From positions 444,409 to 508,408 of the forward strand of contig CBDAQV010000001.1 of assembly GCA_965199265.1 (NCBI GenBank): 64,000 nt of DNA, read 5' to 3'. Positions 57,701-60,700 of this stretch are shown here, one piece after another. The stretch is from Alphaproteobacteria bacterium. Its GTDB lineage: Bacteria; Pseudomonadota; Alphaproteobacteria; CALMVH01. The number at the start of each line of letters is the position of its first letter. Position 1 is the stretch's first letter. Position numbers: made by a program.

Positions 57701-60700
57701 ACGCGGGCAAGGTCGGTCAGGGTCTCGGGGTTCACGATGCGGCGCTTGTTGTGCCGTTTCTTCGGCCAGGGATCGGCGAACAGGATGAAGCACCGCGCGA
57801 TGCTTCCGTCGGGCAGGGCTTTGAGCAGGAAGCGCGCGTCCTCGGTGAACACGCGCACGTTGGACAGGCCCTCCTGCTCCAGCCGCTTCACCAGCATCGA
57901 GATGCCGTTGACGAACGGCTCGCAGCCGATGAGGCCGATGCCCGGATGGCGGCGCGCCTGTTCCGCCAGGTGCTCGCCGCCGCCGAAGCCGATCTCCAGC
58001 CAGACTTCCTGTTTTCCTTTGAAAACGTGCCTGTCATCCTCGGGCTCGACCCAAGGATCTCGCTCCCTGCGAGGCCCGGTCTGCCGGAGATCCTGCGTCT
58101 TCGCGGAGGATGACGGCTCGTTGAGGAGGAATGGCAGCCGTCCCTCGCCATCCAGCGCAATCCGGTACTTCGGCAGGCCGCTCTCCAGCGCCGCGGCGCG
58201 CGCGGGGTTCAGCGGGCGGGCGGTGCGCCGGCCGTAGAACTGCGAGCGGGGAAGGGCAGGTTCCTGTGACAGGGGGACTAAGCCGCCAGATCTTCCAGAT
58301 CGCTGGTGAGGTCGGTCTTTTCCCAGGAGAACCCCCCATCCGCCTCGGGCTGACGGCCGAAATGGCCGTAGGCGGCGGTGCGGGCGTAGATCGGCCGGTT
58401 GAGGCCGAGATGTTCGCGGATGCCGCGCGGGCTGAGGTCCATCAGTTCCTGGAGGCGGCGGGCGAGCTTCTCTTCGTCGCAGCGGCCGGTGCCATGCGTG
58501 TTGATATAGACCGACAGCGGGTGCGAGACGCCGATCGCGTACGACACCTGGATGGTGCAGCGCGCGGCAAGGTTCGCCCCGACCACGTTCTTGGCGAGGT
58601 AGCGCGCGGCGTAGGCCGCCGAGCGGTCGACCTTGGTCGGGTCCTTGCCCGAAAACGCGCCGCCGCCATGCGGGGCCGCGCCGCCGTAGGTGTCGACGAT
58701 GATCTTGCGCCCGGTCAAGCCCGCGTCGCCGTCCGGGCCGCCGATGACGAACCGGCCAGTCGGGTTGACGTAGAATTGCTCCTCAGGGCACATCCAGGCT
58801 TCCGGCAGAACCTTGAGGACGTGCGGTCGCACGATCTCGCGCACGTCCTCGGCTTCCAGCCCGTCGACGTGCTGGGTCGAGACGACAATCGACGTCGCGC
58901 GCACGGGCTGGCCGTACTCGTAGGCGAGGCTGACCTGGCTCTTGGCGTCGGGGCCCAGCATGGGCGCGGCTCTGGTATGCCGCGCGTTTGCAAGGCTGCG
59001 CAGGATCGAATGCGCGTAGAAGATCGGCGCCGGCATCAGCACGTCGGTTTCGCGGCAGGCATAGCCGAACATGATGCCCTGGTCGCCCGCGCCTTCGTCC
59101 TTGTTGCCGGAAGCGTCGACCCCCACGGCAATGTCGGCCGATTGGCGGTGCAGCAGCACTTCGACCCCGGCATTCTGCCAATGGAATCCATCCTGCTCGT
59201 ACCCGATATCCCGCACCGCTTCGCGCGCGACGTGCTCGATCTCGGCATGGGTGACGGACTCGGGGCCGCGGACTTCCCCGGCGATGATCATACGGTTCGT
59301 AGTCGCCAGCGTTTCGCACGCCACGCGCGCCTGCGGATCGGCGCCGAGAAACAGGTCCACAACAGCGTCGGACACCCGGTCACATAGCTTGTCGGGGTGT
59401 CCTTCGGAAACTGATTCGCTGGTGAAGACGTAATTTTTCATAAACCCTCCGGTCAGGAAAAGGGGTTATGAAAGCCTGGAACCGCCCGGTCAATCGCTAT
59501 CGACGTTCGCGGCCTTGCGGCGCGTCGGAACCGCCGTTGCGGCGGCAACCGCCTTCACCATGTCGCCAATGCGCTTGCGCACCAGAGGGTCGGTGATGCG
59601 AGAGTAAGCGCGCACCAGTTCCACCGTTTCGCGACGGCTCATCGGGTCCATCTCGAAAGGGTCTTGCGGCGTCTCGCCGAAACCCCCGACCGGGATGGCG
59701 CTTACGCCCGCGCTCAACTCGTCGAAAAAAAAGGAAACAGGCACGTCGAGCGCCTGGCTGAAATCGTGCAACCGGCTGGCGCCGATGCGGTTCGTGCCTT
59801 TTTCGTACTTCTGGATCTGCTGGAACGTCAGGCCGACTTCCTTTGCCAGCTTGTCCTGGCTAAGGCCCATCATCACCCGGCGCTGTTTCATGCGCGAACC
59901 GACGTGGATGTCGACCGGGCTCGGCGCGTCCCCCCGCGGCCTTCCGCCGCGCTTGTGTGCAACAGTGTTCAACTGGTTCCCCTAAATTTTTGTGACGTTA
60001 GCATACTCAGGCATGCCGGGGAAGGAAATTCGTAAAATTTTTGTTAATTTCTTCGCGAGGCAAACGCCGTGACCAGGATCAACACTGCGAACACCGAATC
60101 GCCGAACCGAGCATAGAAGGGTTCAGCGGCAAGGGCTTGCGGCAGGCTGACGTCCAGGATCCCCTGCGCTGCAAGGGGAAGCTCACCCAGGACGCGCCCA
60201 TAGGGATCGACCGCGCCGGTTATTCCGGTGTTGCCGACGCGCATCAACGGCAAGCCCTGCTCAACGGCGCGGGCGCGAGCCATCGCAAAATGCTGGTACG
60301 GCCCGGAACTGGTGCCGAACCAGCCGTCATTGGTGATCTGCAGCAGCCAGCCGGGGCGCGTGCCCGCCTGAACCACACGCTCGGGGAAAATCGCCTCATA
60401 GCAGATCAGCGGGCTGAACGGCGGAAGATTTTTCACCCTCAGCGTTCGAGGACCCTTTCCGGGCGTCAAGTCCACCGCGCCGACCGCCAGCGCGTCAAGG
60501 TGCAGCACCGAACGGAACGGCATGTACTCGCCGAACGGGGCAAGGTGGGCCTTGTCGTAATGGCCGAGCCGGTTGCCAGCGGCATCGACGGCCTCCAGGC
60601 TGTTATAGTAATGCGCGTCTGCGCCGTGGCCGTCCGCGCGCACCACTCCGGTCAGGACCACCCCGTCCGGCGGCAGGATCGAACCGATGACCTTCGGAAC

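What the first reader, a model, noticed from the sequence alone, without database searches (positions are those of the whole stretch)
58033..58114. REP-like element sitting in-frame inside the trmB coding sequence
Manual translation of the minus strand shows that TrmB continues upstream of the track ORF. The conserved N-terminal block (FYGRRTARPLNPARAAALESGLPKYRIAL) is separated from the SAM-binding block (EVWLEIGFGGGEHL) by about 53 residues. Homologues I recall have roughly 20-25 residues here. The surplus coincides exactly with the 82-bp palindromic element, which translates as NEPSSSAKTQDLRQTGPRRERDPWVEPEDDRHV. Either the element inserted into a tolerant linker without breaking the frame, or there is an undetected frameshift and trmB is inactivated. 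No ATG start exists in this frame near the expected N-terminus, so the start codon is also non-canonical or displaced.
Basis: partly seen in the sequence, partly recalled or inferred. Interest (0 to 1): 0.6.

Follow-up and report, generated by a model that had tools for sequence, protein, structure and literature searches.

The report
Palindromic repeat inserted in-frame in trmB
A short selfish palindromic DNA repeat, common between genes in this bacterium, sits inside the tRNA-methyltransferase gene trmB without breaking the reading frame and adds a floppy 28-residue loop, a known phenomenon that this loop of TrmB attracts repeatedly in other bacteria.

Summary
Window 58032-58115 (84 bp, 28 codons) is a head-to-head dimer of CGTC-tagged REP elements, the alphaproteobacterial palindromic repeat class defined by Di Nocera et al. 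2013. Four more dimers of the same design lie outside well-supported ORFs in the window.

The trmB copy sits in the loop between the arginine-rich N-terminal block of TrmB and strand beta-1 of the methyltransferase domain. The frame stays open from the metK stop to the trmB stop. Conserved residues are intact. AlphaFold models the insert as a low-confidence loop on an otherwise confident fold. The spacing between the two blocks is 78 residues, against a mode of 46-49 in 225 homologues.

No ATG, GTG or TTG exists in this frame upstream of the catalytic domain. The best start candidates are two CTG codons. One is homologous to an ATG or GTG start inside metK in the two closest relatives.

Intragenic CGTC REP dimers of 20-30 residues are already documented, including in tRNA and rRNA modification genes, so this is a new member of a known kind.

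One extra result: an unrelated palindromic family has inserted in-frame into the same TrmB loop in other Alphaproteobacteria, with a clean filled/empty pair.

The parts
58032..58115 (-). Head-to-head dimer of CGTC-tagged REP elements inside trmB (84 bp, 28 codons). It is inserted at codon phase 1 (c|CG...A|gg), so the split codon re-forms CGG (Arg). The insert and its split codon read P-SSSAKTQDLRQTGPRRERDPWVEPEDD-R.
   Evidence: Absent from orthologues.
58087..58115 (-). REP unit 1, at the 5' side in the mRNA. Tag CGTC (58115-58112), stem ATCCTCCGC, loop GAAG, stem ACGCAGGAT (7 of 9 pairs), tail CTC.
   Evidence: Design matches the CGTC family as described in PMC3733652.
58062..58086 (-). 25-nt spacer between the two REP units. 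It contains small hairpins of its own.
58032..58061 (+). REP unit 2, read on the + strand. Tag TGTC (58032-58035), stem ATCCTCGGG, loop CTCGA, stem CCCAAGGAT (8 of 9 pairs), tail CTC.
57484..58272 (-). trmB (tRNA m7G46 methyltransferase) coding frame from candidate start CTG 58272-58270 to stop TGA 57486-57484. The frame stays open further upstream into metK.
   Evidence: TIGR00091 scores 133.1 bits against a cutoff of 112.65. PF02390 E = 8.7e-43. PDB TrmB chains E = 1e-22.
58153..58245 (-). Conserved alphaproteobacterial N-terminal block, SQFYGRRTARPLNPARAAALESGLPKYRIAL. It is upstream of the insert and in the same frame as the catalytic domain.
   Evidence: G and R of YGRR are invariant in 72 sequences.
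57967..58005 (-). SAM-binding block VWLEIGFGGGEHL (beta-1 and the glycine loop), which starts nine codons after the insert.
58324..58326 (-). Candidate start CTG inside the MetK ...FSW... codons, in the trmB frame. GGGGGG lies 5 nt upstream. It is homologous to the ATG start of L048 (perfect GGAGGA upstream) and the GTG start of L047.
58270..58272 (-). Alternative candidate start CTG, beginning 6 nt downstream of the metK stop. This would suit termination-reinitiation coupling.
58278..59441 (-). metK (S-adenosylmethionine synthetase), directly upstream of trmB with no spacer.
6941..7013 (.). Intergenic CGTC REP head-to-head dimer (73 bp), just downstream of the ORF 7023-8081(-).
29688..29768 (.). 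Intergenic CGTC REP head-to-head dimer (81 bp), between ORF 28735-29667(+) and the next gene.
39279..39412 (.). CGTC REP head-to-head dimer with canonical CCA tails (134 bp), just downstream of ORF 39431-40252(-).
49158..49254 (.). Intergenic CGTC REP head-to-head dimer (97 bp, CCA tails), between ORFs 46859-48982(-) and 49288-49575(-).

Best explanation
An 84-bp head-to-head dimer of CGTC-tagged REP elements inserted into trmB. These are non-autonomous palindromic repeats that are abundant in Alphaproteobacteria and normally lie just downstream of genes.

The insertion site is the surface loop joining the arginine-rich N-terminal arm of TrmB to strand beta-1 of its Rossmann-fold methyltransferase domain. 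The dimer is exactly 28 codons long and the frame in use has no stop codon, so the gene stays open. The product would be a TrmB with an extra hydrophilic, probably disordered 28-residue loop.

The insert persists because this loop is structurally permissive. Selection removes insertions elsewhere in the gene or in other frames and leaves this one. The enzyme is probably still made and active. Initiation must use a non-canonical CTG codon, possibly helped by coupling to metK translation, so expression may be low.

Shown: the identity of the repeat, the intact frame, the absence of the insert in orthologues, and the permissive nature of the loop. Inferred: that the protein is made and active, and which codon starts it.
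For: Repeat identity:
- Tag, 9-bp stem starting AT, 4-5 nt loop and tags-outside dimer all match the published CGTC REP definition.
- Four further dimers of the same design occur in 64 kb, all outside well-supported ORFs.

Insertion:
- 15 of 16 aligned orthologues lack it, and so do three of the four closest at the DNA level.
- The spacing is 78 residues against a mode of 46-49 in 225 homologues.
- phmmer splits most hits into two stretches around it.

Intact gene:
- The frame is open over 263 codons.
- GC3 is 0.85-0.86 on both sides of the insert.
- TIGR00091 scores above its cutoff.
- The window differs at only 4 of 74 highly conserved columns, against a median of 3 for homologues.

Permissive loop:
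- AlphaFold gives pLDDT below 50 for residues 56-78 and mostly above 90 elsewhere, with a mean of 86.5.
- PDB TrmB alignments start right after the insert, at E. coli residue 31.
- The E. coli N-terminal extension is flexible and unresolved in the crystal structure (PMC10130221).
- An unrelated palindromic family is inserted in-frame in the same loop in L046, L051, L053 and L054, with L052 as the empty site.

Precedent: intragenic CGTC dimers of 20-30 residues occur in truB, rsmE and tRNA synthetase genes, among others.
Against: - No canonical start codon exists. CUG initiates at only 1-2% of AUG in E. coli (bioRxiv 10.1101/063800), so the gene may be poorly expressed or silent.
- No close relative could be retrieved. 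The nearest TrmB is 60-69% identical and the nearest MetK is 84% identical, apart from one 100% MetK match, apparently from the source genome, whose contig could not be fetched. No filled/empty pair exists for this exact insertion and its age is unknown.
- The -49 kcal/mol hairpin in the mRNA could impede translation.
- The tails of the two units are CTC, not the usual CCA.
- Expression and m7G46 activity are untested.
Confidence: 0.75

Rival explanations
1. trmB is an early-stage pseudogene. It has lost its canonical start codon and has also been hit by a REP dimer. The frame is still open only because stop codons are rare in 63.5% G+C DNA and little time has passed.
For: No ATG, GTG or TTG lies in frame before 57897. 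The homologous start position is ATG in L048 and GTG in L047 but CTG here, through a change that is synonymous in MetK. No called product of this trmB appeared in the 5.8-billion-protein search, although the identical MetK is present. From general knowledge, trmB is dispensable in several bacteria.
Against: 263 codons are open, with coding-type GC3 on both sides of the insert. All invariant residues are kept, and only 4 of 74 highly conserved columns differ, which is typical of homologues. The insert is exactly 28 codons long and is read in one of its four open frames. That pattern is what purifying selection would leave. Equivalent or larger inserts sit in trmB genes with normal starts in other lineages.
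Confidence: 0.17
2. The intragenic REP dimer has been co-opted as an RNA element. Its stable hairpin in the metK-trmB transcript would tune trmB translation, mRNA decay or processing, or expression of the downstream rimP-nusA-infB genes. It would then be retained for that role and not merely tolerated.
For: The RNA fold is -49 kcal/mol with z = -3.8. REPs are thought to act mostly as RNA elements downstream of ORFs (PMC3733652). Here the dimer starts 163 nt after the metK stop. In the Rhizomicrobium-like clade a different palindrome is kept at this loop across orthologues 61-88% identical, with arm differences that preserve pairing.
Against: No T-run follows the hairpin, and the terminator scan finds nothing there. 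There is no Rfam match. The Rhizomicrobium-type arm is an ordinary multi-copy repeat: it occurs in at least 120 metagenome stretches and none of them is next to trmB. Its pairing-preserving differences could therefore come from family-wide homogenisation or re-insertion. No expression data exist.
Confidence: 0.06
3. The palindrome is a chance feature of an ordinary variable linker, or a mis-assembly of a metagenome-derived contig.
For: The linker is naturally variable, 36-58 residues in most homologues. The source appears to be a metagenome-assembled genome: the identical MetK sits on a 517-kb NCBI/ENA contig. Repeats are a classic cause of mis-assembly.
Against: 0 of 200 shuffles fold as well. 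The two halves match, unit by unit, the tag-stem-loop design of four other dimers in the window. The element is complete, with unique flanks that align to orthologues on both sides. A chimeric join would not be expected to restore the reading frame.
Confidence: 0.02

Closest known systems
CGTC-tagged REP elements, and in particular intragenic head-to-head dimers (Di Nocera, De Gregorio & Rocco 2013, BMC Genomics 14:522, PMC3733652)
   Same: Terminal CGTC or TGTC tag, 9-bp stem starting with AT, 4-5 nt loop, dimers with tags outside and a 20-100 bp spacer, alphaproteobacterial host, and mostly intergenic positions just downstream of ORFs. The paper lists dimers inside ORFs that encode 20-30 residues, including tRNA pseudouridine synthase B, RsmE and tRNA synthetase genes. 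The translated frames here (CHPPRKRG, VILRESG, SSSAKAG, IPAFAEDD) resemble the listed peptides (CHSRESGNP, VIPAKAGI, WIPAFAGMT).
   Different: The host gene and site are not in that catalogue. The only tRNA G-N7 methyltransferase entry is a single CGTC-1 unit at residues 109-117 of the 524-residue R. conorii RC1314. The tails of the trmB copy are CTC, not CCA. The dimer is a heterodimer, with loops of 4 and 5 nt.
Rickettsia palindromic elements (RPE; Ogata et al. 2000, 'Selfish DNA in protein-coding genes of Rickettsia'; recalled from memory and cited within PMC3733652)
   Same: Palindromic repeats inserted in-frame into protein-coding genes, adding a surface-exposed peptide segment without destroying the protein. 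According to PMC3733652, RPE-4 and RPE-6 are themselves CGTC-type REPs.
   Different: The host here is a free-living-type, 63.5% G+C alphaproteobacterium, not a reduced A+T-rich Rickettsia genome. RPE-1 is longer, at 100-150 bp. Sequence similarity to RPE consensus sequences was not tested.
GTAG-type REPs and REPINs mobilised by RAYT transposases
   Same: Short palindromic repeats, usually in inverted dimers, multi-copy, extragenic and able to form long hairpins.
   Different: The tag is CGTC, not GTAG. PMC3733652 states that CGTC REPs have no known dedicated transposase. The window was not screened for a RAYT gene.
Bacterial MITEs that insert in-frame into genes (for example Correia or Nezha-type elements; review PMC10969869 was listed but not read)
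   Same: Small non-autonomous palindromic elements that occasionally sit inside ORFs and are translated.
   Different: No target-site duplication is visible at the trmB copy or at the other four dimers. There are no IS-derived terminal inverted repeats.

Membership tests
CGTC-tagged REP superfamily (PMC3733652) | Unpaired terminal CGTC motif (TGTC and CCTC variants allowed) at one end of each unit | tested here: met
   CGTC at 58115-58112 on the minus strand and TGTC at 58032-58035 on the plus strand. The other eight units carry CGTC, TGTC, TGCC or CGTT.
CGTC-tagged REP superfamily (PMC3733652) | Stem of 8-9 bp with complementary A and T in the first and second positions | tested here: met
   ATCCTCCGC with ACGCAGGAT gives 7 of 9 pairs. 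ATCCTCGGG with CCCAAGGAT gives 8 of 9 pairs. Both begin AT and end AT.
CGTC-tagged REP superfamily (PMC3733652) | Loop of 4 nt (family 1) or 5 nt (families 2-4) | tested here: met
   GAAG (4 nt) and CTCGA (5 nt). Assignment to one of the four sub-families was not attempted.
CGTC-tagged REP superfamily (PMC3733652) | Short unpaired tail, mostly CCA | tested here: inconclusive
   Both units of the trmB copy have CTC. CCA tails are present in the dimers at 39279-39412 and 49158-49254.
CGTC-tagged REP superfamily (PMC3733652) | Multi-copy, predominantly head-to-head dimers (tags outside) with spacers of about 20-100 bp, mostly intergenic and close to ORF 3' ends | tested here: met
   Five head-to-head dimers occur in 64 kb, and four lie outside well-supported ORFs. 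The trmB spacer is 25 nt. Tagged hairpins with AT-start stems number 12 in the window, against a mean of 4.5 and a maximum of 9 in 30 shuffles.
TrmB, tRNA (guanine46-N7)-methyltransferase | Match to the curated equivalog model above its cutoff, plus the Methyltransf_4 domain | tested here: met
   TIGR00091 scores 133.1 bits against a cutoff of 112.65. PF02390 E = 8.7e-43. PDB TrmB chains 3dxx, 7nyb and 2fca give E = 1e-21 to 1e-22.
TrmB, tRNA (guanine46-N7)-methyltransferase | Conserved SAM-binding and catalytic residues and the family fold | tested here: met
   All columns invariant in 72 sequences are kept. The window differs at 4 of 74 highly conserved columns. The AlphaFold model has mean pLDDT 86.5 and pTM 0.83.
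TrmB, tRNA (guanine46-N7)-methyltransferase | Translated product with m7G46 methyltransferase activity | not testable with these tools
   No canonical start codon exists. Expression and activity need experiments.
MITE (IS-derived miniature transposon) | Terminal inverted repeats flanked by a target-site duplication | tested here: not met
   The flanks gagc|CGTC...GACA|ggca and those of the other four dimers show no direct duplication.
RAYT-mobilised REP/REPIN | GTAG tag and an associated RAYT (Y1 transposase) gene | tested here: not met
   The tag is CGTC or TGTC, not GTAG. The presence of a RAYT gene in the genome was not tested.

The most novel reading that the evidence does not exclude
The loop before beta-1 of alphaproteobacterial TrmB is a recurrent host for palindromic repeats. 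Two unrelated families have entered it in-frame:
- CGTC dimers in the window.
- A CCTCCCC / GGGTGGGG-type element of about 126-145 bp in L046 and in a whole Rhizomicrobium-like clade.

In that clade roughly 40% of cluster representatives keep the insert, with arms that stay complementary. If this reflects more than survivorship in a permissive loop, the inserts would be exapted. They could lengthen the flexible tRNA-binding arm, or act as an mRNA hairpin that tunes trmB or the downstream rimP-nusA-infB operon.
Probability: 0.12. Interest if true: 0.5.

Novelty: new member of a known kind. Interest (0 to 1): 0.3.

Why it matters
For annotation: a gene caller restricted to ATG, GTG and TTG either truncates this trmB to a 137-residue fragment without its SAM-binding motif or drops it. 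No product of this gene was found in a 5.8-billion-protein collection, although the neighbouring MetK is there.

For biology: this is one more documented case of selfish palindromic DNA being translated inside a housekeeping RNA-modification gene. The independent insertions of another repeat family in the same loop in other lineages mark that loop as a natural permissive site in TrmB. Such a site could be useful for tagging or engineering the enzyme, and it offers a small natural experiment on how proteins absorb repeat-encoded peptides.

It does not open a new class of mechanism.

Tried and rejected
- **Close relatives with an empty site.** The genome-contig scan with the TrmB protein returned nothing closer than 48% identity, to Azospirillum. 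The protein search returned at best 60-69%. The MetK search found an identical protein (P0122, on a 517-kb NCBI/ENA contig) but its contig could not be fetched, and the next MetK is only 84% identical. No filled/empty pair exists for this exact insertion.
- **Rfam.** No family reached its gathering score in the window. Only chance-level hits appeared around the element. The L051 insert gave only spurious miRNA-type hits.
- **Terminator or promoter role.** Neither pattern is found at the element.
- **Covariance model of the REP unit.** The eight units align out of register on the 3' arm, so I used a hand-written hairpin scan instead. That scan is noisy, with 309 hits against about 204 in shuffles. 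Only its AT-start subset (12 against 4.5) was informative, and it revealed the fifth dimer.
- **Hit at 26433.** This is a chance match inside an ORF whose product begins MVIFGATGDLTKR, resembling the N-terminus of glucose-6-phosphate dehydrogenase. It is not a REP.
- **Long linkers of P0360 and P0384.** Their peptides (SSSKASDP...ANGMT) resemble CGTC-coded peptides, but without DNA I could not confirm this, so I do not count them.
- **Gene-specific RNA structure in the Rhizomicrobium insert.** I rejected this idea because the same arm occurs in at least 120 metagenome stretches and none is next to trmB.
- **Internal start after the insert.** No ATG, GTG or TTG lies between the insert and ATG 57897, and a start at 57897 would remove the SAM-binding motif.
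Full report
**1. What is in the sequence**

On the minus strand, metK (58278-59441) ends with TAG at 58280-58278. Another frame is open from well inside metK down to TGA 57486-57484. That frame encodes a TrmB.
- TIGR00091 scores 133.1 bits against a cutoff of 112.65.
- PF02390 gives E = 8.7e-43.
- Solved TrmB chains 3dxx, 7nyb and 2fca give E = 1e-21 to 1e-22.

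The conserved N-terminal block, SQFYGRRTARPLNPARAAALESGLPKYRIAL, and the SAM-binding block, VWLEIGFGGGEHL, are in the same frame.

The palindrome is real.
- Outer arms are GTCATCCTC and GAGGATGAC. Inner arms are AGGATCTC and GAGATCCT.
- The RNA fold is -49 kcal/mol (z = -3.8). The DNA fold has z = -4.6. None of 200 shuffles folds as well in either case.

The mechanical ORF list starts this gene only at ATG 57897 (137 aa). There is no ATG, GTG or TTG further upstream in the frame.

**2. What the element is**

Partial matches to its ends led to four further elements of the same design in the window:
- 6941-7013
- 29688-29768
- 39279-39412
- 49158-49254

All four lie outside well-supported ORFs, and three of the four lie within about 20 bp of an ORF's stop codon.

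Each element is two inverted units. A unit consists of:
- a CGTC or TGTC tag;
- a 9-bp stem, which begins AT in nine of the ten units (GT in the left unit at 49158);
- a 4-5 nt loop;
- the return stem, and a short tail.

The tags face outward. This is the published definition of CGTC-tagged REPs. These repeats reside mainly in Alphaproteobacteria and are organised mostly as head-to-head dimers, meaning tags outside, with 20-100 bp spacers (Di Nocera et al. 2013, PMC3733652).

With its tags, the trmB copy spans 58032-58115.
- Unit 1, on the minus strand, is CGTC-ATCCTCCGC-GAAG-ACGCAGGAT-CTC.
- The spacer is 25 nt.
- Unit 2, on the plus strand, is TGTC-ATCCTCGGG-CTCGA-CCCAAGGAT-CTC.

The total is 84 bp, or 28 codons. 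It entered at codon phase 1, so the split codon re-forms CGG. Four of its six frames are open, and the one in use reads SSSAKTQDLRQTGPRRERDPWVEPEDD. The only defining feature not met is the usual CCA tail, which is CTC here. Two other dimers in the window do carry CCA.

**3. It is an insertion**

- Fifteen of the sixteen orthologues aligned, including three of the four closest, lack it, both in protein and in DNA.
- From GRR to EIGFG the window has 78 residues. In 225 homologues the mode is 46-49 and only four are longer.
- Removing the 28 residues leaves 50, which is within the normal range.
- An exhaustive phmmer search splits most hits into two stretches on either side of the insert.

**4. 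Is the gene still functional?**

Evidence that it is:
- The frame is uninterrupted.
- GC3 is 0.85-0.86 on both sides of the insert.
- Every column invariant across 72 sequences is kept.
- The window deviates at 4 of 74 highly conserved columns, one of which is the start residue. The median for homologues is 3.
- AlphaFold2 gives a confident TrmB fold (mean pLDDT 86.5, pTM 0.83). Residues 56-78, inside the insert, are below 50, and no secondary structure is predicted between the N-terminal region and beta-1.
- Solved TrmB structures align only from just after the insert, at E. coli residue 31.
- In E. coli the N-terminal extension is flexible and unresolved, yet its residue R26 contributes to tRNA binding (PMC10130221).

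The insert therefore sits at the hinge between a flexible arm and the core, which is a plausible place for tolerance.

Evidence against is the start codon. There are two in-frame CTG candidates.
- CTG 58326-58324 lies inside the MetK ...FSW... codons, with GGGGGG 5 nt upstream. In the two closest relatives that also have metK abutting trmB, the same position is ATG with a perfect GGAGGA (L048) or GTG (L047). The difference is a synonymous third-base change in the MetK serine codon.
- CTG 58272-58270 begins 6 nt after the metK stop. The GTG and TTG starts of L046 and L049 lie 8 and 5 codons upstream of the SQF motif, compared with 9 for this CTG.

CUG initiates at about 1-2% of AUG in E. coli (bioRxiv 10.1101/063800). 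No product of this trmB appears in the large protein collection, although the identical MetK does. The likely reason is that gene callers need a canonical start. I cannot decide between weak expression and recent silencing. I put functional at about three in four.

**5. Comparison with what is known**

The same paper catalogues REPs inside ORFs. [quoted passage not shown] For CGTC elements the hosts include tRNA pseudouridine synthase B, RsmE and tRNA synthetase genes. One single CGTC-1 unit sits in the R. conorii gene annotated 'trna-GN7-methyltransferase' (RC1314, residues 109-117 of 524). The paper also equates CGTC-1 and CGTC-4 units in Rickettsia with RPE-6 and RPE-4, which belong to the classic in-frame 'selfish DNA'.

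The finding is therefore a new instance of a described phenomenon. It is not a MITE in the strict sense, because no target-site duplication is present. It is not a RAYT-type GTAG REP. Rfam has nothing for it, and it is not a terminator.

**6. An extension: the same loop is hit repeatedly**

P0002 (L046) carries a different palindromic insert of roughly 20 residues at almost the same place. The fold is -57.8 kcal/mol. Its inner hairpin resembles an element in the metK-trmB spacer of L049.

Among the long-linker homologues, I followed P0335 up. In its Rhizomicrobium-like clade the spacing is bimodal: 44-46 residues in 48 proteins and 80-93 in about 45.

L051 (filled) and L052 (empty) form a clean pair.
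- The flanks are about 90% identical.
- The insert is exactly 126 nt, or 42 codons.
- Its 23-nt arms are 100% complementary.
- The RNA fold is -94 kcal/mol with z = -9.7.

L053 and L054 are 55-62% identical to the empty-site TrmB of L052 (61% and 70% to P0335). They carry the element at the same site, with arm differences that preserve pairing.

The arm is not specific to trmB. An exact 22-mer occurs in at least 120 metagenome stretches, many as inverted pairs with the same architecture, and none of them is near trmB. A copy of this second family also lies in the window at 36170-36276.

Two unrelated repeat families have therefore colonised the same TrmB loop, a few residues apart. The simplest reading is survivorship in a permissive loop. 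Targeting or exaptation is not excluded, but nothing here requires it.

**7. Verdict**

The frame is intact, and the start codon is indeed non-canonical.
- Novelty: new member of a known kind.
- Interest is low to moderate, at 0.3. The element itself is ordinary. The CTG-only start and the recurrent use of this loop are the parts worth a note.

**Limits**

- No reads, expression data or close relatives were available.
- The source genome's contig could not be fetched.
- Sub-family assignment (CGTC-1 to CGTC-4) was not attempted.
- The window was not screened for transposases.

Noticed in passing
window 36170-36276: A second, unrelated palindromic element lies here: [CCCTCTCCC-GGT-GGGAGAGGG][GGGTGAGGGG...CCCCCCACCC][CCTCTCCC-GCA-GGGAGAGG]. 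It sits between the well-supported ORFs 35332-35757(-) and 36773-38107(-). The same architecture occurs in the metK-trmB spacer of L049, and in-frame inside trmB in L046, L051, L053 and L054.
   Followed up: partly
L051:2067-2192 versus L052:2650-2655 (empty site); also L053:10156-10300 and L054:10259-10400: In Rhizomicrobium-like MAGs a palindromic element of 126-145 nt is inserted in-frame in the same TrmB loop. In L051 the arms are 23/23 complementary and the RNA fold is -94 kcal/mol. The linker length among 112 relatives is bimodal (44-46 against 80-93 residues). The arm 22-mer occurs in at least 120 metagenome stretches and none is near trmB.
   Followed up: yes
window 58324-58326 and 58270-58272 (minus strand): trmB has no ATG, GTG or TTG start. 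The codon overlapping the MetK FSW motif is ATG in L048 (with a GGAGGA Shine-Dalgarno sequence), GTG in L047 and CTG here. This suggests that in this clade trmB starts about 48 nt inside metK, and that a change synonymous in metK weakened the start in this genome.
   Followed up: partly
window 57403-57423 (minus strand), with T-run to about 57393: A terminator-like hairpin, AAGTGGGCTCGCGGCCCACTT followed by TTTTTAT, lies between the trmB stop and rimP. It falls inside the 207-aa mechanical rimP ORF (56864-57487). rimP therefore probably starts at ATG 57397, giving about 177 aa, which agrees with the 160-181 aa RimP products called intact in related loci.
   Followed up: partly
window 58034-58339 (minus strand, other frame): An ATG-initiated 101-aa ORF in a different frame runs from inside metK through the trmB N-terminal region and ends inside the REP dimer (...RAVILREDAGSPADRASQGARSLGRARG*). 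It is almost certainly spurious, but it is the kind of ORF a gene caller might pick in place of trmB.
   Followed up: no
L049:2836-2970 (identical in L050): In the relative carrying P0004, metK and trmB are separated by a spacer of about 180 bp filled with palindromic repeats. In the window, L047 and L048 the two genes abut or overlap. Repeats therefore occupy either the spacer or the trmB linker just downstream of metK.
   Followed up: partly
proteins P0269, P0266, P0336, P0360, P0384: Further TrmB homologues have 62-104 residues between GRR and EIGFG. Some carry repeat-like peptides, for example LPLPRGEGEGEG...LLPEGEG in P0269 and SSSKASDP in P0360.
   Followed up: no
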